Notes under the pieces: generated by a model
Seen by the model: only the letters and a program-made list of their open reading frames with translations
Databases searched by the model: none
What the model was told of the DNA's origin: nothing
Assembly (NCBI GenBank): GCA_947629205.1
Contig: CANRCV010000003.1
Location: forward strand, 1,303 to 65,302
Direction of reading: 5' to 3'
Source: an uncultured Bacilli bacterium
GTDB taxonomy: Bacteria > Bacillota_I > Bacilli_A > RF39 > UBA660
Length of the DNA stretch: 64,000 nucleotides
In this document: positions 7,243 through 51,830 of the stretch, one piece after another
Numbering within the stretch: position 1 is the stretch's first letter
Layout: the number at the start of each line of letters is the position of its first letter
Translations under genes and position numbers: made by a program

Positions 7243-7251
7243 GGGATATAG

Positions 7252-12507: not shown

Positions 12508-14337
12508 ATGCAAGCAATTATGTTAGCAGCTGGAATGGGGAAAAGACTAGGAAAATATACAAAAGATAATACAAAATGTATGTTAGAAATTAATGGCAAA
12601 ACATTAATTGAAAGAGCAATTGAAGCTCTAATTGACTCCGGGGGGGGGGTTACAAAGTTAATAATTGTTACTGGATATAAAGGAGAAAATTTAAAAAAAT
12701 TTTTATTAGAAGAATGTAAAAATGAAAAAATAAAACAACTACCTTTGGAATTTATTGATAATCCAGAATATAATAAAACTAATAATATATATTCTTTGTA
12801 TTTAGCAAAAGAAGCATTAGAAAAAGATGATACAATTCTTTTAGAATCTGATTTAATCTATGATGGAAAACTTATTAAAAAGTTAATAGAATCTCCTGAG
12901 AAAAATTTGGTTTCTGTTGCTAAATATAAACAATGGATGGATGGAACCGTTATTAAAGTTGATGATCAACAAAATGTAATTGAATTTATTGAAAAGAAAA
13001 ATTTTAATTATGAAGAAATAGAAAATTATTATAAAACGGTTAATATTTATAAATTAAGTAAAGAATTTTCCCATCAAGTTTTTATTCCTTTTTTAAAAAG
13101 TTATATTCAAGCCTATGGTAATAATGAGTACTATGAATTAGTATTAAAAATTATTGCCCATTTATCCCGTAGTCAATTAAAAGCATTGGATGTATCAAAC
13201 ATTCTTTGGTATGAGATAGATGATGCACAAGATTATGATATTGCTACTTGTATGTTTTCAAGCGGTAAAGAAAAACTAGAAAATTTTCAAAAACGATATG
13301 GTGGTTACTGGAGATTTGAAAATATATTAGATTATTGCTATTTAGTAAATCCTTATTATCCACCAAAACAATTAATGGAGAAAATAAATTATTTTTCCAA
13401 CAATTTAATTACACAATATCCTTCTGGTCAAAAAATTGAATGTATTAATGCAAGTCGTTTATTTAATGTAGATGAAAATTATTTATGTGTTGGGAATGGA
13501 GCTGCTGAATTAATTAATATTTTAGGAAATATTTTAAAAGGAAAAATGTATGTTCCAAAAACAGCATTTAATGAATATATTCGTTGTTTTAAAAATAATG
13601 AATTTACTTTATTTGATATGGAAAAAAATAATTTTCAATATGATTTACAAGATATTAAGAAAAATATCTCTTTGAATGAGATTATTTGTTTAGTAAATCC
13701 TGATAATCCTTCCGGAACATTTTTATCTTTTGAAGAAATAATTTCTATTTTAGAACAATGTAAAAAAGAAAATAAAATAGTTATTTTTGATGAATCATTT
13801 ATTGATTTTGTTAATCCAAATAAAAGATATACTTTATTACAAAATGAAATTTTAGAAAAATATCAAAATTTAATTGTAATTAAAAGTATTAGTAAATCTT
13901 ATGGCATTCCTGGTTTAAGATTAGGTATTTTGGCAACAAGCAATCTATCATTAATGGAAGAAATAAAAAGAAATATTTCGATATGGAATATTAATTCTTA
14001 TGGAGAATATTTCTTACAAATTGCTAATCTTTATAGCAAAGAATATATAAAATCTTGTGATAAAATTGCTATAGAAAGAGATCGCTTTATGGAAGAGTTA
14101 TCTAAAATTAATGGTGTAATTGTTTATCCATCTGAAGCAAATTATGTTTTGTGTAAATTAAAAAATTATAACTCAACAAAATTAGCCATTCAATTGTTAG
14201 ATCAAAATATTTTTATTAAAGATTTAAGAACAAAAAATGCATTTAATGATAAAGATTACATTCGACTTGCCATTAGAACAAAAGAAGAAAATGATGTTTT
14301 GGTTCGTGAAATCAAAAAATCTTTAAAGGGTGAGTAG
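12508..14337 (+). CDS. bifunctional LicC-like nucleotidyltransferase (N-term) / class I-II PLP-dependent aminotransferase or decarboxylase (HisC/CobD-like, C-term); contains an in-frame G10 tract
   Basis: N-terminal MQAIMLAAGMGKRLG matches the NTP-transferase G-rich loop. The C-terminal half has the PLP-lysine context SKSYGIPGLRLGIL. The tract at 12640-12649 encodes GGG. Confidence 0.7.
   Translation: MQAIMLAAGMGKRLGKYTKDNTKCMLEINGKTLIERAIEALIDSGGGVTKLIIVTGYKGENLKKFLLEECKNEKIKQLPLEFIDNPEYNKTNNIYSLYLAKEALEKDDTILLESDLIYDGKLIKKLIESPEKNLVSVAKYKQWMDGTVIKVDDQQNVIEFIEKKNFNYEEIENYYKTVNIYKLSKEFSHQVFIPFLKSYIQAYGNNEYYELVLKIIAHLSRSQLKALDVSNILWYEIDDAQDYDIATCMFSSGKEKLENFQKRYGGYWRFENILDYCYLVNPYYPPKQLMEKINYFSNNLITQYPSGQKIECINASRLFNVDENYLCVGNGAAELINILGNILKGKMYVPKTAFNEYIRCFKNNEFTLFDMEKNNFQYDLQDIKKNISLNEIICLVNPDNPSGTFLSFEEIISILEQCKKENKIVIFDESFIDFVNPNKRYTLLQNEILEKYQNLIVIKSISKSYGIPGLRLGILATSNLSLMEEIKRNISIWNINSYGEYFLQIANLYSKEYIKSCDKIAIERDRFMEELSKINGVIVYPSEANYVLCKLKNYNSTKLAIQLLDQNIFIKDLRTKNAFNDKDYIRLAIRTKEENDVLVREIKKSLKGE
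12640..12649 (+). repeat. homopolymeric G10 tract (simple sequence repeat) inside the nucleotidyltransferase domain coding region
   Basis: Counted directly: ...gactccGGGGGGGGGGttacaaag, translated DSGGGVTK, in frame. Confidence 0.9.
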
Positions 14338-18407: not shown

Positions 18408-18427
18408 TGGTAAAAAGAGGTGAAAAT

Positions 18428-19018
18428 ATGATAATTACCAATACAATTTTTAAAAATAATAATCAACAATATAGGAATCAAAATAATAAATTAACAAGGG
18501 AAGTAAAAGCAAATAAGTTGTATAAAATTATAAATGGGTTATATGAAACAGATCCAAATACACCAGGCTATTTACTTGCTGGAAGTATTTATGGTCCATC
18601 TTATATTTCTTTTGAATATGCTCTTTCCTTTTATGGTCTAATTCCAGAAAGAGTAACTGTGATTACAAATGCTACTTTTGATAAGAAAAAGAAAAAAGAG
18701 TATCATACCTCATTTGGTGTTTTTACCTATAGGGATGTTCCTAAAGAGGTTTATGCCCAAGAAATTCTTTTAAAAGTAGAAAAAAATTATTCTTATCAAA
18801 TTGCAACTCCAGAAAAAGCCTTATGTGATAAGTTATATACTTTATCTCCGCTTCATAATTATAAGAATTTAGAAATAATGCTTTTTCAAGATTTACGTAT
18901 TGATGAAGAAGAATTTAATAAACTAGATGGAAATAAAATAAAAACACTAAGCCATTTCTATCATTCAACAAATATAAATTTATTAGCAAACTATATGAGG
19001 AGAAATAAACATGAATAA
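18428..19018 (+). CDS. AbiEi-family antitoxin-like transcriptional regulator (type IV TA / abortive infection)
   Basis: The track ORF begins at an upstream TTG. The ATG with a strong SD is the likely start. The C-terminal region (GYLLAGSIYGPSYISFEYALSFYGLIPE...ATPEKALCDKLY) resembles AbiEi/COG5340. 8-nt overlap with the AbiEii gene. Confidence 0.55.
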   Translation: MIITNTIFKNNNQQYRNQNNKLTREVKANKLYKIINGLYETDPNTPGYLLAGSIYGPSYISFEYALSFYGLIPERVTVITNATFDKKKKKEYHTSFGVFTYRDVPKEVYAQEILLKVEKNYSYQIATPEKALCDKLYTLSPLHNYKNLEIMLFQDLRIDEEEFNKLDGNKIKTLSHFYHSTNINLLANYMRRNKHE

Positions 19019-23701: not shown

Positions 23702-23718
23702 AATAATAGGTGATTTCA

Positions 23719-30811: not shown

Positions 30812-31911
30812 GTGGAAACTTTGAAAAAAATAATTAATGAACAGAATAAAGATTTTTGGAATATAGTAAAAGGCGTAGGGATTTTATCAATTGTAATTGG
30901 TCATACTGGATGTCAATTAGTACCTTACGTTTATTTATATCATTTAGTTATTTTCTTTTTCATTTCAGGTTATTTATATTCTGAAGAAAAATATGGAGAC
31001 AATCCATTTTTGAATTTTCTTACAAGATTAAAAAAAATTGGAAAAAATATTTTGCTTTTTCTGCTTTTTTTATTTTTTTACATAATCTTTTTTATAACAT
31101 TGGTTTTATTATACAAAATAATTCAATGTATACTTTTCAAGATATTATTGTTCAATTAATTAATTCAATGATATTTCAATGTGTAGAATCATTTGCTGGA
31201 GCATTATGGTTTATACCTGTCTTAATATTTGCTTCATCATTATTTGGAACGTTAATTTATTTTGGAAGAAAAATTAATTATATGTTTAAAATAAATTTTG
31301 GAAAACATCTATTTTTAATTTTCATGTGTTTCTTTTTTATTTATATAGGAAGAATGTTAAATGTTGAAAATATTTATACAACTTATCATTTACAGACTGC
31401 TATATTAGTAATTCCAATATACATAATTGCTTATTATGTAAGAAATATTAAGAATTTAGATTGTTTTTTAAAATGGTATTTTTTCATTCCAGCAATTTTC
31501 TTTTTATATTTATGTGTAAATAAATTTAATTGGAATATTGAACTTTCAATTAATTTAATTTCAGGATATAAATTTTATGTTATTTCTATAGTAGGTATTT
31601 ATTGTTGTTTATATTTAGCCAAAATGTTGTTAAATACTAAATTATTAAAAAAATATTTTATTTTAATAGGAAAATTTTCTTTTGAAATAATGGCTCTTCA
31701 TTTTTTAGTTTTCAAACTTATTGATTATGTGTATGCATTGATAATTCATACAAATGCAAATATATATGGTGTATTCCCTTGTGCTTTTAATAATAATTAT
31801 ATTATTTGCACATTATATATTCTATTAGGAACAATAATTCCAGCAACAATTATTAAATTTTTTACAGCATTAAAAAGTAAATTTAATAATAATAATAATA
31901 ATAATCAATAA
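30812..31911 (+). pseudogene. acyltransferase family 3 (membrane O-acyltransferase) gene interrupted by a frameshift in the 30973-31159 overlap region
   Basis: Two ORFs (30812-31159 and 31126-31911) overlap in different frames. Both halves are hydrophobic, acyltransferase-3-like. Frame 1 stays open back to ~30973. The only repeats nearby are T7aT7 (31065-31079). Confidence 0.45.
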
Positions 31912-31977: not shown

Positions 31978-33609
31978 ATGAAAAAAAAAATATTAACAAG
32001 AAAAAATCAAAATAATTTTTTTAAATTATGTATAGATAAATTAAAAAAATTATCATTTAAAAATTATTTAAATATTTTTTTACTTACCGTTATTTTAATT
32101 TGTGAAACTTATGTATTTTTTCAATACAAAATGATATTTTTTCCAGATGGTCAACTTTATTATTCTTTATCTAGAATTATAGTTGGTTCAACTTCATTAT
32201 CGCATTGGAGTGCAGTAAGAGGTTTTGGGTTTCCTTTAATTATTGCAATTTGGACTAAATTATTTGGAGATTCTTCTTTTGGATTAATATTAGGTTCTTT
32301 TATCTTCTATTTATTTTTAATACTAGGAATTGGATTTTTAATTCAAAAATTTATAAAAATCAATAAAGTAAAAAATAGAAGTTTATTCTTTTTTCTATAT
32401 TTATTAATAGTTGCTTTTAATCCATTAATCATTGGGTATCAACATACATTATTAACAGAAGCTGTAATGCCAAGTTTTTATTTATTAACTATAATGTTAT
32501 GTTTGAAATGGTATAAAATTAATTATAATGATAATAAAAAAACTTATATAGCAATAAATATTATTTTCGTTATACTTGCTATTTGGATTTGGTTTATAAA
32601 GCAACCTTATTCTCCGGCATTTTATATAGCCCTTTTGTTAACTGCTGTTTTAACAGCTATATATTATAAAAGTTGGAAAATATTTGCTACAAGAATGATA
32701 ACTGTTGTAATGTGTTTTTGTTTTATGATGTTATCGATTTTCATATGGGATAATACTTTAACTAAAAATAGCGCTGCATCTGCAAGTGCACTTGATGTAG
32801 CATATATGAGTAATAATATCTATGGTGGATTAAGTGTATATTATTATTATGTAAAGCCGGAAAATTTTTGCGATATTGATTATATACAAAGTTTGGACCT
32901 TTCATTAAAAGAAAAGGAAAAAATTAATTCTATTTATGAACAAGATAAAGAAAATTGGTGTTCACATATTGTAATGTATGAACTTAAAGATCGATATAAA
33001 CAACATATTGCAACTGAAGTTATTATTTCTAATGATGATAAAATTGATATGGCTGAAAATACAATCTTTTTATTGAAAAATATATGGAGACATCCTACAT
33101 TAGTTTTAAAATCCTATTTTTATAATTACTTAGCAATAGCTGATATCCAAGAACGTGATTTAAATAGAGGAGTTGTTTCATCTTTAAATTATGAACCATA
33201 TGTATGGGGAGAAAATTTAAGTAATGGAATGATGGCATTAACAATAGATAATAATACGGTAGTTTTCAATAATAAATCTTTGGCTAAATTTAATGAAAAA
33301 ACTACTCCTTCTAATATTGATCTTATGAATATTTTATTAATTCATAATAATCTTTGTTATTATTTATATAAGCTTTTAATTTTCTTAGCATTGCCTATTT
33401 TTATGTATAGTTTTATTAAATTTATTAAAAATAAAAATATAAATTATTTCTTAATATCTATTTGTAGTTTAACAACTTTTGTAGATGCATTTTTCCATGT
33501 ATTTACTGGGCATGTAATAGATAGATATGCATATCCAGTATATCCATTAATGATTTTGGTATTAATTCTATTGTTTATGGAAAAAAATAATGAAGATACA
33601 AAAAAATAA
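31978..33609 (+). CDS. polytopic membrane protein (about 14 TM), possible polymerase or GT-C-type enzyme
   Basis: 543-aa hydrophobic ORF with no recognisable catalytic motif. Confidence 0.45.
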   Translation: MKKKILTRKNQNNFFKLCIDKLKKLSFKNYLNIFLLTVILICETYVFFQYKMIFFPDGQLYYSLSRIIVGSTSLSHWSAVRGFGFPLIIAIWTKLFGDSSFGLILGSFIFYLFLILGIGFLIQKFIKINKVKNRSLFFFLYLLIVAFNPLIIGYQHTLLTEAVMPSFYLLTIMLCLKWYKINYNDNKKTYIAINIIFVILAIWIWFIKQPYSPAFYIALLLTAVLTAIYYKSWKIFATRMITVVMCFCFMMLSIFIWDNTLTKNSAASASALDVAYMSNNIYGGLSVYYYYVKPENFCDIDYIQSLDLSLKEKEKINSIYEQDKENWCSHIVMYELKDRYKQHIATEVIISNDDKIDMAENTIFLLKNIWRHPTLVLKSYFYNYLAIADIQERDLNRGVVSSLNYEPYVWGENLSNGMMALTIDNNTVVFNNKSLAKFNEKTTPSNIDLMNILLIHNNLCYYLYKLLIFLALPIFMYSFIKFIKNKNINYFLISICSLTTFVDAFFHVFTGHVIDRYAYPVYPLMILVLILLFMEKNNEDTKK

Positions 33610-33646
33610 AATTTGCGTGAAATATAAATATAAAAGGCATAATTTA

Positions 33647-33681
33647 GGTCTCGCATTTAGATAAAGAGCGAGACCTTTTTT
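33647..33681. terminator. bidirectional rho-independent terminator (ggtctcgc - 13-nt loop - gcgagacc - TTTTTT)
   Basis: Perfect 8-bp GC-rich stem followed by a T6 run, between convergent genes. Confidence 0.8.
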
Positions 33682-33686
33682 CTAAT

Positions 33687-34592
33687 TTAAATTTTATTTA
33701 ATATATTAATAGTAAGGCTTTCTGTGTATTCTTTACGACCTTGATTTGATAAATGAATTAAATCAAAAAAATTATAAGAATTTTTACTAATATTCTCATT
33801 TATATCAGTAGATAGGTAATAAGTAATATTATTTTCTTTTAAAATGTTTGTATAAATAGCCATTAATCCTTGATAATAATGATCTTCCATGATACGTCCT
33901 GATTTAGGAGTTTCAATATATGATAATGAAATATTATTTTCTTGACATATTTTTATAATATTTAAAATGGCTTCTATATTTTTATCTTTAATTGTACTTT
34001 CTTCAATAATATTTAGATTATCTAATTTATTTTTATCTATTCCATTTTTTCCAATTTTTATTCCTCCTTGATAATAAGTAGCATTTACTATAGGATAATA
34101 AATTGGCCAAGTAAGTAATTGCTCAACATTTTTACTTACAAATATTGAATAAAAATCACTAAAATCTTTATTATCTCCTAAAAGATTATACAATTCATAT
34201 TTTCCTTTTAAATTTACTTCCATTAATATTTTACTATCACTTATAGGTGATAAATCTGCTAACGAATAAGCATATAAATCAATATATAAATTTTTTATCT
34301 TAACATTATTTTTTAATAAGTAGTCAATAATCCAAGATTCTAAAATTGGATTATTTCCATTGTAAGATAAAATATAACTGTCTATTCCATTTTCTTCTAA
34401 AATTTTAGAATCTAATCCTTGGCGAAACATAGAAGAACCTATAAATAAATTTTCAACTTGTCCTTGATTAATAAGACGGGGAAGCCCATATTCAGCATGA
34501 TTTAATAATTTATTTTCATAATTATCTTTGATAATAATACAAAAAATAGAAAATAGTATAGCTGCAAAAATAGTAATAATTAATTTTTTCAT
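33687..34592 (-). CDS. secreted SGNH/DltD-like partner protein of the MBOAT (O-acyl transfer to glycopolymer)
   Basis: Signal/anchor sequence. GDS-like block FIGSSMFRQG near the N-terminus. Located immediately downstream of the MBOAT gene. Confidence 0.5.
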   Translation of the reverse strand: MKKLIITIFAAILFSIFCIIIKDNYENKLLNHAEYGLPRLINQGQVENLFIGSSMFRQGLDSKILEENGIDSYILSYNGNNPILESWIIDYLLKNNVKIKNLYIDLYAYSLADLSPISDSKILMEVNLKGKYELYNLLGDNKDFSDFYSIFVSKNVEQLLTWPIYYPIVNATYYQGGIKIGKNGIDKNKLDNLNIIEESTIKDKNIEAILNIIKICQENNISLSYIETPKSGRIMEDHYYQGLMAIYTNILKENNITYYLSTDINENISKNSYNFFDLIHLSNQGRKEYTESLTINILNKI

Positions 34593-34601: not shown

Positions 34602-35862
34602 CTAATAATTCATGTAAATAAATTTATTTGCTGTAAAAACTCCAAATAAAATAATAAAAACGATGTATATAAAAATTCTAATACAGTATTTTTGTTTTGT
34701 ATAATCTTCTTTATTTTTTATTTCAATAATGAATTGAAATAAAATTAAAATGAATAATGTAATAGCCATAGCAATACTAGCATTATCTCCAGTAAAAGGA
34801 ATTACACAATTTACTAAGCTATTATAATTGATTACAAAATTTGATAACATATGTTTTAAATAATTAATTCCAGCACTAAAGCTCTCTAAACGAAAAAATA
34901 TCCATCCAATAGTTATTTCTATAAAAGTTAAGATTTTGTAAAAAAATGATTTTAATTTATTATGTGATGGGGGGGGGGGTTAAATTATTTAAAATTCCAT
35001 GATACAATCCCCAAAATATGTATCCACTACCATTTCCATGCCAAAATCCACTAACTAAAAAAGTAATTATAGAATTTAACCATTTTCTAAATTTTCCTTT
35101 TCGATTTCCTCCTAAAGGAATGTAAATATAATCTTTTAGCCAACTAGATAAAGAAATGTGCCAGCGTCCCCAAAATTCTTTAATGCTTTTAGAAAAATAA
35201 GGACGATTAAAATTTCTTTCAACCTCTATACCAAGAAGATTAGATATACCTATAGACATATTAGAATATCCAGAAAAATCACTATATATTTGAATGCTAT
35301 AAAGTATAGCAGCAATAAATAAAGCTAAACCTGTATAAGATGTATAATTTTGAAAAACTGTATTGACATATACAGCAGTACGATTTGCAATTACAAATTT
35401 TAAAAATAAACCAGCAATAATTAATTGTATACCTTTTAACCATTTATCTTTTTTAAAAGTAAAAGTGTTATCTAATTGTTCAATAATTGTTTTTCCTCTA
35501 GAAATTGGTCCGGAAATAATTTCAGGAAAATAAGTCACATAAATAAAATAATTTATAAAATTTTGTTTAAATGAAATTTTATGTTTATAGTTATCTATTA
35601 AATAACTTATAATTTTAAAGGAATAAAAAGATAAACCTAAGGGCAATATTTTAATAAATGATTTATAAAATATCCAAATGAAAACCGTAAAAATAGTTCC
35701 TAATAGAGTAAAAATTTTATTATTCTTTTTAGTGCATAAAAAAGTTATGCATACTAAAAGAATTAAAATTGGCAAAGATTTAAAATCAATTAAGCAGTAA
35801 AAAAGTAAATTGATTAATAAAAGAATCATTTTACGCATTTGTATGTTATTTGGTTTTGTCAT
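34602..35862 (-). CDS. MBOAT-family membrane-bound O-acyltransferase (DltB/AlgI/PatA-like), reading frame interrupted at a C11 tract (phase-OFF as sequenced)
   Basis: Conserved-His region WGRWHISLSSWLKDYIYIPLGG...VSGFWHG. ORF 34960-35862 ends ...LTPPPIT* just after the tract. Hand translation of the -1 frame is stop-free from the tract into ORF 34602-34850. Confidence 0.7.
34969..34979 (-). repeat. homopolymeric C11 tract (G11 on + strand) inside the MBOAT gene
   Basis: tgtgatGGGGGGGGGGGttaaatt counted directly. Confidence 0.9.
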
Positions 35863-35971
35863 ATGGTTTAACTCCTTTATTAGCTAATTTAATTATACAC
35901 TAAATAATTAATGATTAATATCTTTTTTTAAAATAAAAGATGAATAGTTTTTTAAATAACTTTACATAAAT

Positions 35972-37100: not shown

Positions 37101-37916
37101 ATGAAAAAAAATTTATCTTTAAGAGAAATTCAATTAAAAGAATTAAATATTTTAAAAGAGGTAGTAAAAATTTTAGAAAAACATAATTTAAAATATTCAT
37201 TATGTGGTGGTACACTTATTGGTGCATTAAGACATAAGGGTTTTATTCCTTGGGACGATGATATAGATATATTTATGCCTAGACCAGATTATGATAAACT
37301 TATTCAATTATCTTCAGAAATAGATGATGTTAACCTAAAGCTATGCTGCTATGAAAATGGTACTGGGTTTTTGCCAATTTGTAAAATTAAAGATGAAACT
37401 ATAAAGATTATTGATGATGCAGCAATTTCTGAAGGTAGAGAACAAGATAATATATGGATTGATATTTTTCCTATTGATGCATTACCAGATAATTTAAAGC
37501 AACGAAAAAAATTATATAAAAAATATTCCATATATAGAAAATTATTTATCATTAGTAGAAATAAAATAAATTTTTCAAATAAAAAAATATTTTCTATAGA
37601 ATTTATAAAAGAATGCATAAGAGTTTTAGTTAAACCTATTTCTAAGTTTATTACTGCAAAACAATTAATTAAAATTGCTACTAAGTTGGATTGGAATAAT
37701 GCCAAATATGTTGGTGATATAGTTTGGGGATATGGAGAAAAAGAAATGTTAAATAAAAGTGATTTTGATGATTTAATAGATATTGATTTTGAAGGAAATA
37801 AATTTAAAGTAATTAAAAATTATGATTATTATTTAAAACGTGTTTATGGAAATTATATGGAATTGCCTCCAGAAAATGAAAGAGGAGGACATGGTATTAA
37901 AGCACTGGAAAAATAG
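37101..37916 (+). CDS. LicD/fukutin-family phospho-headgroup transferase (phosphocholine or ribitol-phosphate transferase type)
   Basis: LIGALRHKGFIPWDDDIDIFMPRPDYDKL, the LicD nucleotidyltransferase-fold signature. Confidence 0.75.
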   Translation: MKKNLSLREIQLKELNILKEVVKILEKHNLKYSLCGGTLIGALRHKGFIPWDDDIDIFMPRPDYDKLIQLSSEIDDVNLKLCCYENGTGFLPICKIKDETIKIIDDAAISEGREQDNIWIDIFPIDALPDNLKQRKKLYKKYSIYRKLFIISRNKINFSNKKIFSIEFIKECIRVLVKPISKFITAKQLIKIATKLDWNNAKYVGDIVWGYGEKEMLNKSDFDDLIDIDFEGNKFKVIKNYDYYLKRVYGNYMELPPENERGGHGIKALEK

Positions 37917-39882: not shown

Positions 39883-40896
39883 ATGAAACAAGAAGAATCA
39901 AATAAAATAACGAATCTTAATTTTATATTAACAATACTAATTGTTTTTATGCACTCAAGCTGCTTAAGTTATAGTAGTACAATTCAAAATGAATTTGTTG
40001 GAATAATATATAATTTCATATATGGTATTCTAAATATAGCAGTTCCTACTTTTTTTGCATTATCAACAATTTTATTTTTTCGCAATTTTGATATGTCAAA
40101 ATATAGATTTAAGATAAAAAGTAGAATTAAATCATTAGTGTTGCCTTATTTATTTTGGAGTACTGTTTTTCTTGTTTATTACATAATAATTACTCATATT
40201 CCTTGGGTTAGTAGTATGGATACTACAATGGAACCAATAAAATATAATTTATTTTCTATACTATATTATATTTTATTTGCAAAATATGCGGGTGCCCTTT
40301 GGTATATTAGAGAACTTTTTATATTATTTTTAATTTCACCAATAATATATAGTCTGGTAATTAAATTAAAAAGTAAAAATTGGATTTTAATTCTTTTTGT
40401 TATTACAATGAATTTAATTTTTAAGCCATCCTATTTTACTTTTATTTATTGGCTCCCATTATACTATATGTTTGCTTATCTAGTGATTAGCAAGAAAAAA
40501 ATAAATATAAATTTAAATGTTCTTAAATTTCTATTAATTTCGGGGGGGGGGCTATTCTTAATAATACTTAATGAATATTCAGGATTTTATATGCACTTTA
40601 TATTTAGATTATATATACCATTCTTTATATTATATTTAGTTTCAAAAAGTAAATTATTAGAAAAGAATCCTAAATCTTTTATGAAAAATAATTTTATTAT
40701 ATATTGTACTCATTTTCAATTATCGGTTGTAATTAAAAGATTACTTATGATTATTTTTGGAACTAATGAATGGTTACTTTTAGTATATCAGTTGGTAACG
40801 TGTTTTATGGTAGTGTGTATAATTAATATATTTATTAAATTAGGAAAAAAGATATGCCCGAAATTTATAATGTTTATATCTGGTGGTAGAGTTTAA
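39883..40896 (+). CDS. acyltransferase family 3 membrane O-acyltransferase; contains an in-frame G10 tract
   Basis: 10-TM protein with N-terminal TILIVFMHSS pattern. The tract at 40542-40551 encodes ISGGGLF. Confidence 0.65.
   Translation: MKQEESNKITNLNFILTILIVFMHSSCLSYSSTIQNEFVGIIYNFIYGILNIAVPTFFALSTILFFRNFDMSKYRFKIKSRIKSLVLPYLFWSTVFLVYYIIITHIPWVSSMDTTMEPIKYNLFSILYYILFAKYAGALWYIRELFILFLISPIIYSLVIKLKSKNWILILFVITMNLIFKPSYFTFIYWLPLYYMFAYLVISKKKININLNVLKFLLISGGGLFLIILNEYSGFYMHFIFRLYIPFFILYLVSKSKLLEKNPKSFMKNNFIIYCTHFQLSVVIKRLLMIIFGTNEWLLLVYQLVTCFMVVCIINIFIKLGKKICPKFIMFISGGRV
40542..40551 (+). repeat. homopolymeric G10 tract in the acyltransferase-3 gene
   Basis: atttcGGGGGGGGGGctattc counted directly. 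In frame. Confidence 0.9.
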
Positions 40897-40920: not shown

Positions 40921-41940
40921 ATGAAAAAAGAAATTCCTATTATGTTTTGTTTTGATAAAAATTATGTGATTCCTGCAGCTGCTTGTTTTATATCTATAAT
41001 GGAACATGCAAATTCTAAAAATAACTATCATTTTTATGTTTTGCACTCTGATATATCAAAAGATCAACAAGATAAATTACACTTGGATATGAGAAAATTT
41101 TCAAATTGTAAATTGGAATTTATAGATATGAATAACAAATTTAAAACTGAATTTAAAAATGTTGAGAATAAAGCCCATTTTTCGAAAGAAGTATTATATA
41201 AATTAATTTGTGGTTCTATTTTTCCGAATATTAATAAACTAATTATTACAGATGTAGATGTAATCTTTTTAGATGATATTGCTAAAATTTATGATGAATT
41301 ATCAGAAAATGATTCATATTATTTTGCTGGTATTCCCCCTATTAAAACCAAACCATATATTTATAAAGATAAACCTAGTTATAAAAAATTTGATGAGACT
41401 GAATTGGCAATATTAGAAAATGGTATAGGTGGAGGTTTTTTATTAGCTAATTTAAAAAAAATTCGTGATGATAATTTTGAAGAAAAATTAGTAAATTACC
41501 TTATACAAAATGCAAATAAACTAATACAAATGGAACAAGATGTTATAAATGTCGTTGGGGGGGGGGTACATGGTATAAAACATTTACCATATTATTACAT
41601 GGTATGTAGTTATCATTATAATGATTTTAATGATTCAGAGGCATATAAAAAATTAATTTATCATGACGAAAAAGATGTTAAATATGCTTTAGAACATCCA
41701 GTACAGTTACATTATGCTACTTGTGATAAACCTTGGACTTATGTTGATTGTGCTAAAAGTGAAATATGGTTTCAGTATATCGTTAAATCAGTTTTTTTAA
41801 GAGATTTTTTAGAAGAATTACCAAGTAAAATAAAAACCGTAAATGACTTTTTACAAACCATGAGAAAGAAGCATAAAAAGTTATATAATTTTTTATTAAA
41901 AATATATCATTTAATTAAAAAGATACTTTTTATTAAATAA
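40921..41940 (+). CDS. GT8-family glycosyltransferase (LgtC/RfaJ-like retaining hexosyltransferase); contains an in-frame G10 tract
   Basis: IPIMFCFDKNYVIPAAACFISI and the DxD region LIITDVDVIFLDD. The tract at 41557-41566 encodes VVGGGVHG. Confidence 0.7.
   Translation: MKKEIPIMFCFDKNYVIPAAACFISIMEHANSKNNYHFYVLHSDISKDQQDKLHLDMRKFSNCKLEFIDMNNKFKTEFKNVENKAHFSKEVLYKLICGSIFPNINKLIITDVDVIFLDDIAKIYDELSENDSYYFAGIPPIKTKPYIYKDKPSYKKFDETELAILENGIGGGFLLANLKKIRDDNFEEKLVNYLIQNANKLIQMEQDVINVVGGGVHGIKHLPYYYMVCSYHYNDFNDSEAYKKLIYHDEKDVKYALEHPVQLHYATCDKPWTYVDCAKSEIWFQYIVKSVFLRDFLEELPSKIKTVNDFLQTMRKKHKKLYNFLLKIYHLIKKILFIK
41557..41566 (+). repeat. homopolymeric G10 tract in the GT8 gene
   Basis: gtcgttGGGGGGGGGGtacatgg counted directly. 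Confidence 0.9.
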
Positions 41941-43508: not shown

Positions 43509-44618
43509 ATGAAAGAAAAAACAAATAGAAATTCAAATGTTGAAATATTAAGAATAATTAGTATGCTATTAATTATTGCTCATCATTATTCATACTATGG
43601 TTTTAAAGATTTGGGTATAGTTTATACTTTTAACAAGTATTTAGTAAGTTTTATTGGTTTTGGTGGAAAATTGGGAACTCTTATTTTTGTACTTATTTCT
43701 GGTTATTATATGTGCGATTCTAAATTTTCAATTAAAAAATTAATTAAATTAATTGGAGAAGTTTGGTTTTATTTAACTGGTATTGGTCTTTTATTGCTTT
43801 TTGTTTTTCCAACAAATATTCCTATAGATTTTCATACAATACTTAAAATTTTTATTCCTTTATTATATCAACAAAATTGGTTTATTACTGACTACATATT
43901 ATTAATGATAATATCTCCTTTATTGAATATAATTATTCAACAAATTAATAAAGAATTTTATAAAAAGATTTTGTTTGTTGGAGTTCTAATATGTTCAATA
44001 ATTCCAAGTCTTTTTTATGCAGATTTAAATATAAATAGTATATTATGGTTTATAGTATTGTATTTTATTTCTGGATATTTGAAAAAGCATATTCAATTGA
44101 ATCAAAATAGTAAAAAAAATTTTTTATTATCATTTCTATTTTTAATAATACTATTTACCCTTAAAGTAGGAAATGTATTTTTAGGAAATTATTTACATAT
44201 GCCTATATTAATTAATAATAGTATATATTTTAATTCTTTAATTAGTCCATTGACGTTGCTTGTAGGTTTAGAGTTATTAATTGCGTTCTTAAAATTAAAA
44301 CCTTTTTCTAACAAAATTGTAAATGAAATTGCTAGTACAACATTAGGAATTTATCTTATTCATGATCATTTTTTAATGAGAAATTTCTTATGGGGGGGGG
44401 GTATATTTAATAATAAAATATACTTTAATTCCAATTTATTAATTATCCATGCTATGATTTGCATAAGTATAGTATATATTATTTGTGCCATTATTGATTT
44501 AATACGTCAAAAAACAATAGAAAAAATTTATTTGAAAATAGTAGATAAATTTATATTATTTTATCAAAAGAAAAATTTAAATAAATTTTGGAGTTATGTT
44601 TATAAAATTATTAATTAA
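43509..44618 (+). CDS. acyltransferase family 3 membrane O-acyltransferase, paralog A; contains an in-frame G10 tract
   Basis: ILRIISMLLIIAHHY...ASTTLGIYLIHDHF...LWGGGIF. Close paralog of 47885-49006. Confidence 0.65.
   Translation: MKEKTNRNSNVEILRIISMLLIIAHHYSYYGFKDLGIVYTFNKYLVSFIGFGGKLGTLIFVLISGYYMCDSKFSIKKLIKLIGEVWFYLTGIGLLLLFVFPTNIPIDFHTILKIFIPLLYQQNWFITDYILLMIISPLLNIIIQQINKEFYKKILFVGVLICSIIPSLFYADLNINSILWFIVLYFISGYLKKHIQLNQNSKKNFLLSFLFLIILFTLKVGNVFLGNYLHMPILINNSIYFNSLISPLTLLVGLELLIAFLKLKPFSNKIVNEIASTTLGIYLIHDHFLMRNFLWGGGIFNNKIYFNSNLLIIHAMICISIVYIICAIIDLIRQKTIEKIYLKIVDKFILFYQKKNLNKFWSYVYKIIN
44392..44401 (+). repeat. homopolymeric G10 tract in acyltransferase-3 paralog A
   Basis: cttatGGGGGGGGGGtatattt counted directly, translated LWGGGI. 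Confidence 0.9.
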
Positions 44619-45697: not shown

Positions 45698-46819
45698 ATG
45701 AAAAAAAATAGCAAATTATTATTGTCCATTATTTGTCCTATTTATAATGGTGAAAAAGTTGTTGGAAATTTAATTGAATCTTTAGAAAATCAAGAATACA
45801 AAGACTATGAATTGATATTGATAAATGATGGATCAGAAGATAATACATGGGATGTCATTCAAAATTATGCCAAACAATATAGTAACATTGTTTTAATAAA
45901 TAAAAAAAATACGGGCGTTGGAGATACTAGAAACGAAGGACTAAAAATTGCCAAAGGAAAATATATTGCATTTGCTGATGCAGATGATACTTATACAATA
46001 GATTTTTTTGAAAAAATAATTCCAGAAATTAAAAAGGAAGATTTTGAAATGCTTGTTTTTAATGCAAATGTAATGAATCACGAAAAGTATTTATATGCTG
46101 AAATTTCTGAAAAATATTCTAGTGGTTCTTTTATTGAAAAACATGGAGTAGAAAAATATTTACAAGGTGAATTTTGTTATAGAATTGGAAATGTGCCTTG
46201 GAATAAAATATACTTATCTAAAATTATAAAAGAAAATAATATTTGGTTTGAAAAAGACAAAAAAACAGGAGAAGATTTGATATTTAATATTTGCTATGTA
46301 TCTAAAATTGAAAAATATAAATATTTAAATATTAAACTTTACAATTATATGCTAAATATGATTGTAAATAAAAATAGAAATTATTTTGAAAACTGTTTAG
46401 AAGAAAATTTAAAATATTATGAATTATTAGAAAAAATATGTAAAACTGAAAATATAAAAACGCAATATTTATCTTTATTTTTTCTAAGGAGATTTCCAGG
46501 TATTGTACAAAATGAAGTTAATAATAAAGATTACTATCAAGGTAAACTAAATATAAAAAAATACTTATGCAATGAAAAAATGAAAAAAGTTTTTACTAAT
46601 ATAAATTTACGAAATATAGATTTAAAATTATTTATTTGTTATCTATTTTATAAATTAAAAATTTATAATTTTTACTATTGTATAAAATGGAAAATAGCTC
46701 ATAAAATTGATCGGGGGGGGGGCTATAGACTAGATTTTAATTTCCTTAATACTGAAATAAATAATATTCAATATTTTTTTAAAAAGACTTTAATACCTAT
46801 ATACTTTTTGAAAGAATAA
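45698..46819 (+). CDS. GT2-family glycosyltransferase, paralog 1; contains an in-frame G10 tract near the C-terminus
   Basis: LSIICPIYNGEKVV...NDGSEDNT GT2 signature. The tract at 46713-46722 encodes DRGGGYRL. Confidence 0.7.
   Translation: MKKNSKLLLSIICPIYNGEKVVGNLIESLENQEYKDYELILINDGSEDNTWDVIQNYAKQYSNIVLINKKNTGVGDTRNEGLKIAKGKYIAFADADDTYTIDFFEKIIPEIKKEDFEMLVFNANVMNHEKYLYAEISEKYSSGSFIEKHGVEKYLQGEFCYRIGNVPWNKIYLSKIIKENNIWFEKDKKTGEDLIFNICYVSKIEKYKYLNIKLYNYMLNMIVNKNRNYFENCLEENLKYYELLEKICKTENIKTQYLSLFFLRRFPGIVQNEVNNKDYYQGKLNIKKYLCNEKMKKVFTNINLRNIDLKLFICYLFYKLKIYNFYYCIKWKIAHKIDRGGGYRLDFNFLNTEINNIQYFFKKTLIPIYFLKE
46713..46722 (+). repeat. homopolymeric G10 tract in GT2 paralog 1
   Basis: attgatcGGGGGGGGGGctataga counted directly. 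Confidence 0.9.
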
Positions 46820-47884: not shown

Positions 47885-49006
47885 ATGAGTACTACTGAAA
47901 AAAAGCGTAATTCAAATTTAGAATTATTAAGAATTATTAGTATAATTTTAATTATTGCTCACCACTATGCTGGGCATGGTTTTGTTATTGAAAATATGCC
48001 ATATTCGTTCAATCAATATTTAATTGGTTTTTTAGTATTAGGTGGGAAATTAGGAGTCGTTTGTTTTATTTTAATTTCTGGATTTTTTATGTGTGAAACA
48101 AAATTTTCTATTAAAAAATTAATTAAATTAATAGGTGAGGCATGGTTTTATTTACTTGTAATAGGAATATTATTTAATACAATTTTAACCCCAACTATTC
48201 CTATTGATTTTACAGTAATATTAAAATCAACCATTCCAATTATATATGATCAAAATTGGTTTATAACAGATTATATAATGCTAATGATAATTTCACCAGT
48301 ATTAAATATTATCATTAAAAATATTAGCAAAGAATCATATCAAAAAATGCTTATCATAGGATTTATTTTATATTCAGTTTTACCTATATTCATTTTTGCA
48401 AGTCTTAATAATACAAGTTTTGTTGGGTTTATTTATTTATATTTTGTAGCAGGGTATATGAGAAAATTTTTACAAGTTCAAAATTCTCCTAAAAGATATT
48501 TTTTAAAAGCTTCGATAATTAATTTTATGGTTATATTATCAAGTATTTTGTTTATATTTTTAGGTCATAAATTCAATTTAACTATTTTTATAGTTAATAA
48601 TGCCTATTTTAGTTCTTTAAATAGTCCATTTACTTTGTTAATAGGAATTGAACTATTTATATTCTTCTTAAAATTAAAACCCTTTACAAGTAAAATTATT
48701 AATAAAATTGCTAGTACAACTTTAGGAATTTATTTAATTCATGATAATTTTTTACTACGTCCATACTTGTGGGGGGGGGGTATATTAAATAATTTAAATT
48801 ATGTTAATTCTCCATTTTTATTTTTACATGCTATTATTTCAATAATAGGAGTATTTATTGTATGTGTTATTATTGATCTAATTAGACAAGAAACAGTAGA
48901 AAAGGTTTATTTGAAAATTGTAGATAAATTAATTTTATTTTATCAAAAAAAGAATTTAAATATATATAAAAAAATTTGGTATTATATTAGTAAAATAATA
49001 GATTAA
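47885..49006 (+). CDS. acyltransferase family 3 membrane O-acyltransferase, paralog B; contains an in-frame G10 tract
   Basis: Collinear with 43509-44618, including the LWGGGIL tract context and the ...IDLIRQETVEKVYLKIVDKLILFYQKKNLN tail. Confidence 0.65.
   Translation: MSTTEKKRNSNLELLRIISIILIIAHHYAGHGFVIENMPYSFNQYLIGFLVLGGKLGVVCFILISGFFMCETKFSIKKLIKLIGEAWFYLLVIGILFNTILTPTIPIDFTVILKSTIPIIYDQNWFITDYIMLMIISPVLNIIIKNISKESYQKMLIIGFILYSVLPIFIFASLNNTSFVGFIYLYFVAGYMRKFLQVQNSPKRYFLKASIINFMVILSSILFIFLGHKFNLTIFIVNNAYFSSLNSPFTLLIGIELFIFFLKLKPFTSKIINKIASTTLGIYLIHDNFLLRPYLWGGGILNNLNYVNSPFLFLHAIISIIGVFIVCVIIDLIRQETVEKVYLKIVDKLILFYQKKNLNIYKKIWYYISKIID
48771..48780 (+). repeat. homopolymeric G10 tract in acyltransferase-3 paralog B
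   Basis: acttgtGGGGGGGGGGtatatta counted directly. Confidence 0.9.
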
Positions 49007-50853: not shown

Positions 50854-51830
50854 ATGAAAGAAATTGGTGGATTTTTAGAATTAGATCTTTATAAAGATAG
50901 AAATAAAAAATTTAAAAATAATTTATTATTATTTAATAGTTGTCGTAATGCATTGGCTTATATAATTAAAGTAAAGAATATAAAAAAAATGGCTGTGCCC
51001 TATTATTTGTGTGATTCAATTGTAAATTTATTACAAAAAAATAATATAGATATAACTTTCTATCATATTAAAATGGATTTTACTCCTGAGAATAATATTA
51101 AATTAAGAACTGGTGAATATCTTTTTGTAGTAAATTACTATGGTCAATTAACGAAAAAAATGCAAGGCAAATTAAAATCACAATATAAAAATATAATTTT
51201 AGATAATACGCAAGCTTTTTTTGATAAGCCTTTAAAAAATGTTGATACTCTTTATTCTTTTCGTAAATTTTTTGGAGTCCCCGACGGGGGGGGGTATCTA
51301 CGAATGATGCAAGTTACTATAATCAATTAAAGGTTGATAAATCTAATAATCGTATGTCAGCTTTACTTGGCAGATTTGAAGAAAATGCAGCAGCTTTTTA
51401 TACAGTTTTTCAAAATTTAGAAGAAAATTTTGAGAATATGCCTATGTTAAAAATGTCAAAGTTAACTAATAATCTTTTAAATGCAATTGATTTTTGTAAA
51501 GTAAGAACTATTAGAACTAAAAATTTTAACTTTTTATATAAAAATTTAAAGAATAAAAATATTTTGAAATTAAAAAAAGTTAAAGGTGCTTATATGTACC
51601 CATTATATTTAGAAGATGCTGTAGAATTAAAAAAATTTTTATTAGAAAATAAAATATATATTCCTATTTTATGGCCTAATGTTTTAAATATAGTTTCAAA
51701 AGATTCTATTGAATATAAATATGTGCATAATATTTTACCTTTACCTTGTGATCAAAGATATAGTAAAACAGATATGAAATACATTTGTGATAAAATAATT
51801 GAATTTGAAAAAAGGACAAGAAAGAAGTGA
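50854..51830 (+). CDS. DegT-like (fold-type I PLP enzyme-like) sugar-modifying protein, split into two ORFs at a G9 tract (phase-OFF as sequenced)
   Basis: ORFs 50854-51330 and 51354-51830. NSCRNALAYII...VPYYLCDS resembles the DegT N-terminal block. Hand translation shows the +1 frame after the tract runs stop-free into the second ORF. Confidence 0.4.
51286..51294 (+). repeat. homopolymeric G9 tract separating the two halves of the DegT-like gene
   Basis: ccccgacGGGGGGGGGtatcta counted directly. Confidence 0.9.

What the first reader, a model, noticed from the sequence alone, without database searches (positions are those of the whole stretch)
34602..35862. MBOAT O-acyltransferase gene switched OFF at a C11 tract; a 1-nt contraction restores a ~420-aa DltB/AlgI-like protein
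ORF 34960-35862 on the minus strand ends ...NLTPPPIT* immediately after the C11 run. I translated the frame one base shifted by hand from the tract through 34851. It reads P-S-H-N-K-L-K-S-F-F-Y-K-I-L-T-F-I-E-I-T-I-G-W-I-F-F-R-L-E-S-F-S-A-G-I-N-Y-L-K-H and joins ORF 34602-34850 without a stop. That gives a full-length MBOAT carrying the conserved FWHG histidine. The downstream SGNH/DltD-like partner gene (33687-34592) would be co-expressed. The sequenced state is therefore a phase-OFF variant of an O-acylation system. O-acylation systems of this kind (e.g. D-alanylation or O-acetylation) typically change surface charge and phage or antimicrobial-peptide sensitivity.
Basis: seen in the sequence. 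Interest (0 to 1): 0.7.

Follow-up and report, generated by a model that had tools for sequence, protein, structure and literature searches.

The report
Slippery C-run switches off acyltransferase gene
A run of eleven C's breaks a membrane acyltransferase gene that decorates the cell-wall sugar coat of an uncultured gut bacterium, and it is one of eight such slippery runs in the same gene cluster, a known kind of on/off switch seen here in an unusual host.

Summary
On the minus strand, a C11 run (34979-34969) ends an MBOAT reading frame at 300 aa. C10 or C13 gives an intact 419/420-aa protein that aligns end to end with full-length homologues.

The phase-variation reading is supported.
- A near-identical metagenome contig from another sample carries C10, and a third assembly carries C11.
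- The run is absent from relatives and is built from rare CCC codons.
- The 124 codons after the run are still open and conserved.

The window holds eight G9-G11 runs where about 0.01 is expected. All eight lie inside genes of one wall-glycopolymer cluster: three AT3 acyltransferases, GT8, GT2, a nucleotidyltransferase-aminotransferase fusion, an unknown gene and this MBOAT. Length 10 is the ON length in all eight. Six are ON and two are OFF.

The downstream gene is a membrane-anchored SGNH protein whose fold is closest to DltD and PatB. The pair is therefore PatA/PatB- or AlgI/AlgX-like. It is not a DltB equivalog, and no dltA or dltC lies nearby.

This is a new member of a known kind, resembling Campylobacter poly-G contingency genes. 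It sits in an uncultured low-GC rabbit-gut Bacilli lineage whose sister species lack such runs in the regions I could inspect. Switching itself has not been measured.

The parts
34602..35862 (-). MBOAT O-acyltransferase gene, frameshifted in this sequence (300-aa product; 419 aa with C10)
   Evidence: sequence and translations. PF03062 E=1.5e-26. DltB structures 6BUG/8JEM, E about 1e-25; full-length homologues.
34969..34979 (-). C11 homopolymer (G11 on the + strand), encoding T-P-P-P. This is the switch. C10 and C13 are ON; C9, C11 and C12 are OFF.
   Evidence: C10 in L001 and C11 in L002. Relatives have mixed codons here. CCC is only 7.7% of Pro codons elsewhere in the window.
34960..34962 (-). 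Premature TAA stop reached in the C11 frame
34602..34959 (-). Out-of-frame C-terminal third of the MBOAT (residues about 298-419). It is still an open frame with the family's invariant residues.
   Evidence: no stop in 124 codons; invariant F313, G319, F323, M338, P355, F356, D359, E380, Y399, F414, Y416, N418 are present; the post/pre-tract identity ratio is 0.84, against 0.90 +/- 0.07 among homologues.
33687..34592 (-). Partner gene: a 301-aa N-terminally membrane-anchored SGNH-fold protein (DltD/PatB-like). Its AGGAGG ribosome-binding site overlaps the MBOAT stop codon.
   Evidence: invariant G52, S54, G79, N80, D277, H280. AlphaFold2 pLDDT 93.8. Foldseek top hits are DltD 6O93/3BMA, GDSL esterases and PatB 8TLB/7TLV. 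Always adjacent to the MBOAT in relatives. RBS read.
35863..35971 (.). Divergent intergenic region upstream of the MBOAT gene (AAGGAG RBS; promoter presumed)
   Evidence: sequence. The promoter scan was uninformative in this AT-rich DNA: 26 sites found against 29 expected.
33646..33676 (.). 9-bp GC-rich hairpin between the convergent genes. Likely terminator: a U-run follows on the + strand, and it also closes the MBOAT-partner unit.
   Evidence: -16.1 kcal/mol, z = -5.3 on the minus strand; -16.0, z = -3.5 on the + strand.
12640..12649 (+). G10 run (ON) at codon 45 of the NTP-transferase + aminotransferase fusion gene 12508-14337
   Evidence: G10 also in L090.
40542..40551 (+). G10 run (ON) in AT3 acyltransferase gene 39883-40896
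41557..41566 (+). G10 run (ON) in GT8 glycosyltransferase gene 40921-41940
44392..44401 (+). G10 run (ON) in AT3 acyltransferase gene 43509-44618
46713..46722 (+). G10 run (ON) in GT2 glycosyltransferase gene 45698-46819
   Evidence: G10 in L091.
48771..48780 (+). G10 run (ON) in AT3 acyltransferase gene 47885-49006, at the same codon as in its paralogue 43509-44618
   Evidence: G10 in L091.
51286..51294 (+). G9 run (OFF). G10 would fuse ORFs 50854-51330 and 51354-51830 into one 325-aa protein of unknown family.
   Evidence: The same G9 reading frame is seen in a second assembly (P0365).

Best explanation
The gene at 35862-34602 encodes the membrane component (MBOAT) of a two-protein extracytoplasmic O-acylation system. 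Its partner, encoded 10 nt downstream, is a membrane-anchored SGNH transferase.

By analogy with PatA/PatB and AlgI/AlgJ-AlgX, the MBOAT passes an acyl group (most likely acetyl, from a cytoplasmic thioester) across the membrane. The SGNH partner then puts it on a wall-linked glycopolymer made by the surrounding cluster.

Expression is governed by a poly-C run inside the coding sequence. Slipped-strand mispairing during replication changes the run by +/-1 nt. That toggles between an in-frame state (C10, 419 aa) and out-of-frame states (C11 here, 300 aa, lacking the last roughly 120 residues and at least three predicted membrane helices).

The sequenced state is OFF. The same device sits in seven other genes of the cluster, with G10 as the ON length in every one. 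A clonal population can therefore display up to 2^8 combinations of glycan decorations.

Shown here: the frameshift, the family assignments, the C10/C11 polymorphism, the eight runs and their frames. Inferred: the switching rate, the acyl donor, the acceptor polymer, loss of function of the truncated protein, and the selective agent (phage or host immunity).
For: - Frame logic: C10 and C13 restore 419/420 aa; C9, C11 and C12 truncate.
- Length polymorphism: L001 (ENA ERZ27249635) is 100% identical over 1,015 nt and 99.96% over 2,331 nt, the only difference there being C10 versus C11. L002 (ERZ27249148) is 100% identical over 2,009 nt and has C11.
- The gene is otherwise intact. There is no stop in the 124 post-run codons, although about 1 random codon in 10 in this composition is a stop. 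All family-invariant C-terminal residues are present. Post/pre-run conservation is within the family's range.
- The run is derived and costly. Relatives read CCG GCT CCT AAA or CCT ACA CCA AAA at this site. CCC is 7.7% of Pro codons and GGG 6.8% of Gly codons elsewhere in the window.
- Pattern: eight G9-G11 runs against 0.0015-0.01 expected, and none of 6-8. All are intragenic in glycan genes, and length 10 is in-frame in all eight. Six of eight are in frame; the binomial P is about 0.02 if frames were random (my arithmetic).
- Two AT3 paralogues only 69% identical in DNA keep a perfect G10 at the same codon, so the runs are maintained.
- The run lies in a predicted loop (residues 293-301) between helices, at a position variable among homologues.
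- Family: PF03062 and DltB structures with both conserved His. The partner has the SGNH fold and motifs. The MBOAT-partner pair is conserved in relatives next to RgpF, ABC-transporter and GT genes.
- Cluster context: LCP-PASTA ligase, GT4 primer, TagF-like enzyme, ABC-2 exporter and LicD x2.
Against: - Only one C10 contig exists. It has about 2x coverage, so an Illumina or assembly homopolymer error cannot be excluded.
- That contig also carries an unexplained in-frame 84-nt to 30-nt replacement. It removes the conserved VTYFPEIISGPISR motif, so the only 'ON' allele seen may not encode an active enzyme.
- No length variation was seen at the four other runs for which I had a second assembly: three at G10/G10 and one at G9/G9.
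- None of the computed +/-1 products of the six ON genes is on record.
- No read-level data were available, so within-population heterogeneity is untested.
- The truncated protein keeps both conserved histidines (H235, H275), so loss of activity is assumed, not shown.
- The partner has its own strong RBS and may be made in either state.
Confidence: 0.72

Rival explanations
1. Homopolymer-length miscall. The organism really carries C10 (gene ON), and C11 in this assembly (likewise G9 at 51286) is a short-read or assembly error at a long G/C run.
For: The source is evidently a short-read metagenome assembly, because relatives and allelic contigs are SPAdes 'NODE' contigs. The alternative contigs have only about 2x coverage. 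Length 10 is the in-frame length at all eight runs, and both deviants differ from it by exactly one base. L001 reads C10.
Against: C11 is called in two separate per-sample assemblies: the window's 65.6-kb contig and L002. The G9 frame is also seen twice. The same pipelines call G10 consistently at other runs. Even if the length were miscalled, the tract would remain a contingency-type repeat.
Confidence: 0.1
2. Decaying pseudogene. The frameshift is a fixed loss-of-function lesion in a redundant acyltransferase, not a reversible switch.
For: The cluster has at least four other acyltransferase genes (three intact AT3 and one split AT3 at 30812-31911 with no G/C run). The only C10 allele carries a further lesion that deletes a conserved motif. 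C11 was seen in two of three assemblies.
Against: The downstream 124 codons are open and conserved to the family norm. The lesion sits exactly at a hypermutable run that the lineage itself built from rare codons. Seven sister runs are kept, mostly in frame. The partner gene is intact and identical across samples.
Confidence: 0.08
3. Leaky rather than binary switch. From the C11 template some full-length MBOAT is still made, either by RNA-polymerase slippage on the run or by +1 ribosomal slippage of tRNA-Pro on CCC-C. The run would then tune the level rather than switch ON/OFF.
For: This rests on established knowledge only. Long homopolymers cause transcriptional slippage, which is noted for Buchnera poly(A) genes in PMC2831843. 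CCC-N proline codons are classical +1 frameshift sites, and the required shift from C11 is +1. Nothing in my results tests this.
Against: There is no stimulatory element: no conserved structure or Shine-Dalgarno-like sequence was noted near the run. The same design with poly-G (Gly codons) in seven other genes argues for a DNA-level mechanism common to all. Slippage on G/C runs is generally weaker than on A/T runs (my knowledge).
Confidence: 0.07

Closest known systems
Campylobacter jejuni poly-G/C contingency genes ('phasome') in capsule, LOS and flagellar-glycosylation loci (PMC6321876, PMC8437040, PMC8355987, PMC3417653)
   Same: G/C homopolymers of about 9-11 nt sit inside coding regions of many glycan-modifying genes clustered in surface-polysaccharide loci of an AT-rich gut bacterium. 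ON/OFF is set by frame, and states combine across genes.
   Different: The host is an uncultured low-GC Gram-positive-type Bacilli lineage with an LCP-linked wall polymer, not an epsilonproteobacterium. The ON length is uniformly 10, and all runs are G on one DNA strand. The sister species I could inspect lack such runs in the stretches I had. Switching is not measured here.
PatA/PatB (peptidoglycan or secondary cell wall polysaccharide O-acetylation) and AlgI/AlgJ/AlgX, WssH/WssI: an MBOAT plus a separate SGNH transferase (reviewed in PMC9558356)
   Same: A polytopic MBOAT with the conserved histidines is encoded next to an extracytoplasmic SGNH-fold protein. The location is inside a glycopolymer locus.
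   Different: The partner matches no Pfam or NCBIfam model at the default or relaxed thresholds. It is closer in fold to DltD than to PatB. Acceptor and acyl group are unknown. My searches found no paper describing these systems as switched by a homopolymer.
DltB/DltD D-alanylation of teichoic acids
   Same: DltB is the best solved-structure match for the MBOAT (6BUG, 8JEM). DltD is the best fold match for the partner. Both partners are N-terminally membrane-anchored.
   Different: The DltB equivalog model is not met (160 bits against 375). The partner is 301 aa, against about 390 aa for DltD, with TM-scores of only 0.37-0.49. No DltA or DltC is in the 64-kb window.
Phase-variable O-acetyltransferases of the AT3 family, such as Haemophilus influenzae oafA (PMC9558356)
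   Same: Repeat-mediated on/off switching of O-acetylation of a surface glycan. Three AT3 genes in this same window carry G10 runs.
   Different: A different enzyme family for the gene in question (MBOAT). The repeat is a homopolymer, not a tetranucleotide.

Membership tests
MBOAT superfamily (PF03062) | Domain match above Pfam's gathering score | tested here: met
   93.9 bits against a cut-off of 27, residues 98-290. PF13813 also matches at 35 bits against 25.
MBOAT superfamily (PF03062) | Conserved catalytic histidine in a membrane helix (GFWHG) and the second conserved His (RWHxSLS) | tested here: met
   H275 and H235 align with the corresponding DltB residues and are invariant in 21 homologues. 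Both lie upstream of the run.
DltB (TIGR04091 equivalog; D-alanyl transfer) | Score above the equivalog cut-off | tested here: not met
   160.2 bits against a cut-off of 375
DltB (TIGR04091 equivalog; D-alanyl transfer) | Operon with DltA (AMP-binding ligase) and DltC (carrier protein) | tested here: not met
   No AMP-binding or PP-binding domain in any ORF of 90 aa or more in the window. The rest of the genome was not available.
Two-component MBOAT + SGNH glycan O-acyltransferase (PatA/PatB, AlgI/AlgJ/AlgX type) | Adjacent gene for an extracytoplasmic SGNH-fold protein with a Ser...Asp-x-x-His catalytic set | tested here: met
   Invariant G52-S-S54, G79-N80 and D277-x-x-H280 in 55 homologues. 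Model pLDDT 93.8 with an N-terminal helix 2-29. Foldseek hits to DltD, GDSL esterases and PatB at E = 1e-5 to 1e-3. Adjacency is conserved in relatives.
Two-component MBOAT + SGNH glycan O-acyltransferase (PatA/PatB, AlgI/AlgJ/AlgX type) | Transfers acetyl (or another acyl) group to a defined extracytoplasmic glycan | not testable with these tools
   Needs chemistry on the polymer. Only the genomic context points to a wall polymer: LCP ligase, GT4 primer, ABC-2 exporter and, in relatives, RgpF.
SSR contingency locus (phase variation by slipped-strand mispairing) | Long simple repeat within the ORF whose +/-1 changes toggle the reading frame | tested here: met
   C10/C13 are ON; C9/C11/C12 are OFF
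SSR contingency locus (phase variation by slipped-strand mispairing) | Repeat-length polymorphism among otherwise identical genomes | tested here: inconclusive
   C10 (L001) against C11 (window, L002), with 99.96-100% identical flanks. There is only one variant contig, at about 2x coverage, and it carries an extra indel.
SSR contingency locus (phase variation by slipped-strand mispairing) | Repeat over-represented relative to composition and concentrated in surface-structure genes | tested here: met
   8 runs of 9 or more, against 0.0015-0.01 expected. All lie in glycan genes between 12.5 and 51.8 kb.
SSR contingency locus (phase variation by slipped-strand mispairing) | High, reversible switching rate within a clonal population | not testable with these tools
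   No reads or cultures were available

The most novel reading that the evidence does not exclude
A Campylobacter-style multi-gene poly-G 'phasome' has arisen independently and recently in one species-level lineage of uncultured, very low-GC gut Bacilli. Eight G10-ON switches, all with G on the leading strand, sit in a single wall-glycopolymer cluster. They include combinatorial O-acylation by one MBOAT/SGNH pair and three AT3 enzymes, and would give up to 256 surface glycotypes from one genome. The sister species I could inspect, over partial regions only, have no such runs. This would be, as far as my searches show, the first homopolymer-switched MBOAT system and a rare case of poly-G contingency genes governing a Gram-positive-type wall polymer.
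Probability: 0.5. Interest if true: 0.6.

Novelty: new member of a known kind. Interest (0 to 1): 0.45.

Why it matters
Phase-variable glycan decoration is a main route by which Campylobacter, Neisseria and Haemophilus escape phages and antibodies. It has been studied almost only in Gram-negative pathogens.

A commensal-type, uncultured Gram-positive gut bacterium appears to use the same device at eight genes of its wall-polymer cluster. If so, stochastic surface diversification by poly-G slippage is a more general strategy in gut ecosystems than assumed.

There are practical consequences too. Metagenome-assembled genomes will routinely show such genes as 'frameshifted pseudogenes', and tract lengths in metagenomic reads could be mined as a readout of phage or immune pressure.

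For the enzyme family, it offers natural ON/OFF material for working out what an orphan MBOAT-SGNH pair acylates.

Tried and rejected
- JGI metagenome scan for the run with variable length and exact flanks: 0 hits. The strain appears only in ENA rabbit-gut assemblies and one Logan run.
- Exact-sequence look-ups of the computed C9/C10/C12/C13 MBOAT products, and of the G9/G11 products of the other seven genes. Only the window's own G9 product and a second-assembly fragment of it were on record.
- Look-ups through neighbouring genes to capture more tract alleles. Two gave nothing, the DegT look-up gave nothing, and L088 and L089 stop short of the runs.
- Pfam and NCBIfam on the partner protein, even at E <= 10: no relevant hit. 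The question was resolved by structure prediction instead.
- Sigma-70 promoter scan: no more sites than in shuffles, so uninformative in 23% GC DNA.
- AlphaFold2 of the repaired MBOAT with 14 sequences: pLDDT 69. I used it only for helix and loop positions and did not submit it to a fold search.
- Search for the origin of the 30-nt replacement in L001: absent from the window and from all 91 loci.
- Common flanking motif or mobile element around the eight runs: none seen, so I rejected the idea that the runs were inserted by a shared element.
- Poly-G sequencing artefact from two-colour chemistry: rejected. The runs recur at the same in-frame positions in independent assemblies.
- The D-alanylation (Dlt) reading: rejected on the equivalog score and the absence of DltA/DltC.
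- Organism name: a TsaD homologue search returned only unnamed metagenomic proteins. The taxon was inferred from the nearest MAG titles.
- Literature: no paper combines phase variation, homopolymeric tract and MBOAT.
Full report
**1. The observation**

On the minus strand the sequence reads ...GGA ATT TTA AAT AAT TTA ACC CCC CCC CCC ATC ACA TAA. The run is C11, at window 34979-34969 (G11 on the + strand). ORF 35862-34960 ends ...NLTPPPIT* after 300 codons.

I rebuilt the gene with other run lengths:
- C10 gives a 419-aa ORF that reads TPPPSHNKLKSFFYKILTFIEITIGWIFFRLESFSAGINYLKHMLSNF... and ends at the TAG at 34604-34602.
- C13 gives 420 aa.
- C9, C11 and C12 stop within 6-9 codons.

The only slip is '~420 aa' for 419.

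**2. What the gene is**

The repaired product matches Pfam MBOAT (PF03062, E=1.5e-26, 93.9 bits against a cut-off of 27) and MBOAT_2. Its only solved relatives by sequence are DltB of Streptococcus thermophilus (6BUG) and Bacillus subtilis (8JEM), at E about 1e-25. HHAT is a distant third.

The alignment covers both conserved histidines: 'WGRWHISLS' (H235) and 'SGFWHGNG' (H275). Both lie upstream of the run, which encodes residues 294-297.

The NCBIfam DltB equivalog scores only 160 bits against a cut-off of 375. This is therefore a bacterial MBOAT of the AlgI/PatA/DltB kind, but not a DltB.

A search of 5.8 billion proteins found relatives of 66-73% identity that are 416-429 aa long and align end to end. 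After the run the window's shifted frame keeps every invariant residue of the family: F313, G319, F323, M338, P355, F356, D359, E380, Y399, F414, Y416 and N418.

The ratio of post-run to pre-run identity is 0.84. Among the homologues themselves it is 0.90 +/- 0.07. A 124-codon open frame is not expected by chance in DNA where roughly one random codon in ten is a stop. Apart from the run, the gene is intact.

**3. The partner**

Ten nucleotides downstream lies a 301-aa ORF (34592-33687). An AGGAGG site overlaps the MBOAT stop codon. The ORF has no Pfam or NCBIfam match, even at relaxed thresholds.

In 55 homologues, the invariant residues are those of the SGNH blocks: G52-S-S54, G79-N80 and D277-x-x-H280. 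An AlphaFold2 model is confident (pLDDT 93.8, pTM 0.90). It shows an N-terminal helix at residues 2-29, followed by an alpha/beta domain.

Foldseek against the PDB puts DltD first (6O93 at E=1e-5, then 3BMA). GDSL esterases and peptidoglycan O-acetyltransferase PatB (8TLB, 7TLV) follow. TM-scores are 0.4-0.6.

The MBOAT-partner pair is adjacent in every relative I fetched. In one relative it sits beside RgpF, an ABC-2 exporter and glycosyltransferases.

**4. The surroundings**

From about 3.3 to 61.7 kb the window is a wall-glycopolymer cluster. It contains:
- an LCP ligase with a PASTA domain
- a GT4 priming transferase
- a YidC-TagF-like fusion
- an ABC-2 exporter pair
- many GT2, GT4 and GT8 enzymes
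- two LicD proteins
- an IspD-like cytidylyltransferase
- DegT, WbqC, GtrA-GT2 and DUF2142 proteins
- four AT3 acyltransferase genes

No AMP-binding (DltA) or carrier-protein (DltC) gene is present. A wall-linked polysaccharide or teichoic-acid-like polymer is therefore the likeliest acceptor, and acetyl the likeliest group. Both are inferences.

The MBOAT-partner unit is the only part of the cluster near this site on the minus strand. It is closed by a 9-bp GC hairpin at 33646-33676.

**5. The run is one of eight**

The window is 24.7% GC. G runs of length 5 occur four times. Lengths 6-8 never occur. Then there are one G9, six G10 and one G11, all as G on the + strand, and no C run exceeds 5. 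Chance predicts 0.0015 (independent bases) to 0.01 (Markov) runs of 9 or more.

All eight runs are inside ORFs of the glycan cluster:

| Gene | Product | Run | State |
|---|---|---|---|
| 12508-14337 | Nucleotidyltransferase + aminotransferase fusion | G10 | ON |
| 35862-34602 (minus strand) | MBOAT | G11 | OFF |
| 39883-40896 | AT3 acyltransferase | G10 | ON |
| 40921-41940 | GT8 glycosyltransferase | G10 | ON |
| 43509-44618 | AT3 acyltransferase | G10 | ON |
| 45698-46819 | GT2 glycosyltransferase | G10 | ON |
| 47885-49006 | AT3 acyltransferase | G10 | ON |
| 50854-51830 | Unknown family | G9 | OFF |

In the last gene, G10 would fuse two 158-aa ORFs into one 325-aa protein. In every one of the eight genes, length 10 is the in-frame length. 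Six of eight in frame has P of about 0.02 if frames were random (my arithmetic).

The runs use GGG and CCC codons, which make up only 6.8% and 7.7% of Gly and Pro codons elsewhere in the window. Two AT3 paralogues that are only 69% identical in DNA both carry a perfect G10 at the same W-G-G-G codon position. The runs are therefore maintained, not accidental. The flanks share no motif.

**6. Is the run variable?**

The same strain turns up in separate per-sample ENA assemblies.

| Run (window position) | Window | Other assemblies | Source |
|---|---|---|---|
| MBOAT, 34969 | C11 | L001 (ERZ27249635): C10. L002 (ERZ27249148): C11 | |
| 12640 | G10 | L090 (ERZ27249360): G10 | |
| 46713 | G10 | L091: G10 | |
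| 48771 | G10 | L091: G10 | |
| 51286 | G9 | Fragment P0365, ending ...DGGGYLRMMQVTIIN: G9 frame | |

L001 is 100% identical over 1,015 nt and 99.96% identical over 2,331 nt. The single difference in that stretch is C10 instead of C11. L002 is 100% identical over 2,009 nt.

So the MBOAT run is the one place where near-identical sequences differ in the comparisons I could make. The OFF lengths are reproducible between assemblies, which argues against random miscalls.

The caveats are real. The variant contigs have about 2x coverage. L001 also carries an in-frame replacement of 84 nt (window 35537-35454) by an unrelated 30-mer. That removes the conserved VTYFPEIISGPISR motif, and the 30-mer occurs nowhere else in my data. 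It may be an assembly chimera or a real lesion. I could not obtain reads, and further look-ups found no other alleles.

**7. Origin of the run**

At the homologous site, relatives read P-A-P-K or P-T-P-K with mixed codons (CCG GCT CCT AAA; CCT ACA CCA AAA), or S-P-K.

The nearest genomes are rabbit-gut MAGs titled 'uncultured Bacilli bacterium' or 'uncultured Tenericutes bacterium', with TsaD 88-89% and MBOAT 68-69% identical. In roughly 110 kb of their DNA that I fetched, including their MBOAT loci, no G/C run exceeds 5. Within the limits of that sample, the poly-G design is specific to the window's lineage.

A low-confidence model of the repaired MBOAT (pLDDT 69) places residues 293-301 in a coil between helices 279-292 and 302-325. 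Six further helices follow. The run therefore sits in a variable loop, where one extra proline (C13) should be tolerated. The C11 product lacks at least three membrane helices.

**8. Mechanism proposed**

The run changes length by +/-1 nt through slipped-strand mispairing at replication.
- In C10 or C13 cells the full MBOAT is made. With the SGNH partner it O-acylates the wall polymer.
- In C11 cells a 300-aa stump is made.
- The partner has its own ribosome-binding site and may still be translated. Without the MBOAT it would lack an acyl supply.

With seven other switches, a clone can generate up to 2^8 glycotypes. By analogy with Campylobacter capsule switches (PMC3417653, PMC8437040, PMC8224891), the likely selective agents are phages and host antibodies.

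Shown here: the frames, the family assignments, the eight runs and one C10/C11 polymorphism. Inferred: the switching rate, the chemistry, the phenotype and the selection.

**9. Rivals**

- A homopolymer miscall (gene really ON). This is weakened by the reproducible C11 and G9 calls.
- A fixed pseudogene. This is weakened by the intact downstream frame, the derived nature of the run and the C10 allele. It is kept alive by the extra lesion in L001 and by acyltransferase redundancy.
- A leaky switch through transcriptional slippage or +1 ribosomal slippage on CCC-C. This is untested, and it could coexist with the DNA switch.

**10. Comparison and novelty**

Functionally this is the poly-G/C contingency-gene design of Campylobacter (PMC6321876, PMC8355987) applied to an MBOAT/SGNH acylation pair of the PatA/PatB-AlgI/AlgX type (PMC9558356).

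Phase-variable O-acetylation is known for AT3 enzymes, such as H. influenzae oafA (PMC9558356). My full-text searches found no paper that links phase variation, homopolymeric tracts and MBOAT. A broad survey reports that poly(G) and poly(C) tracts are generally under-represented in prokaryotic genes (PMC2831843).

I rate it a new member of a known kind. The single-gene finding is ordinary in principle. The eight-switch cluster in an uncultured low-GC Bacilli lineage is the more interesting result.

Noticed in passing
window 12640-12649, 40542-40551, 41557-41566, 44392-44401, 46713-46722, 48771-48780, 51286-51294: Seven further poly-G runs (six G10, one G9), all inside glycan-biosynthesis genes. 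Length 10 is in-frame in every case. All are G on the + strand, which has positive GC skew throughout (0.06-0.23).
   Followed up: yes
window 50854-51830: A second OFF gene. G9 splits a 325-aa protein of unknown family (no Pfam, NCBIfam or PDB sequence match) lying between WbqC and DegT genes. The same G9 frame is seen in a second ENA assembly (P0365).
   Followed up: partly
window 31981-31990: An A10 run directly after the ATG of ORF 31978-33609 (MKKKIL...; 543-aa multi-pass membrane protein with no family match). This gene is the convergent neighbour of the MBOAT pair. It may be an additional 5'-end homopolymer switch of another type.
   Followed up: no
window 30812-31911: An AT3 acyltransferase gene is split into two overlapping ORFs (30812-31159 and 31126-31911), with no G/C run at the junction. 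Its 3' end carries a (TAA)7 repeat (31884-31904) encoding a poly-Asn tail.
   Followed up: partly
window 43509-44618 and 47885-49006: AT3 paralogues 69% identical in DNA keep a perfect G10 at the same W-G-G-G codon position. This implies long-term maintenance of the run. The neighbouring GT2 paralogues (45698-46819 and 46856-47881, about 73% identical) differ: only the first has a run.
   Followed up: partly
L001 1016-1045 (window 35454-35537): The only C10 contig replaces 84 nt of the MBOAT gene with an unrelated 30-mer, in frame, deleting the conserved FPxIxSGPIxR motif. The 30-mer is found nowhere else in the data. It is either a low-coverage chimera or a real lesion.
   Followed up: partly
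window 12508-14337: A LicC/IspD-like nucleotidyltransferase fused to a class I/II aminotransferase (best NCBIfam hits CobD and HisC), with a G10 run at codon 45. With two LicD genes (37101-37916; 52938-53738 on the minus strand), this suggests a phase-variable phospho-amine (choline-, ethanolamine- or phosphonate-type) decoration.
   Followed up: no
window 15961-18024; 18380-19871; 21051-22361 and 23710-25041: There is an unusual YidC (60KD_IMP) domain fused to a TagF-like glycerophosphotransferase. Inside the glycan cluster sit an AbiEii toxin gene with an upstream 212-aa ORF, and two AAA_14/DUF4143 ATPase genes.
   Followed up: no
window 5491-8577: Secreted proteins with SH3 plus dockerin, and with cadherin-like domains, lie next to the LCP-PASTA ligase. 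They are conserved in the sister MAGs (L092-L096).
   Followed up: no
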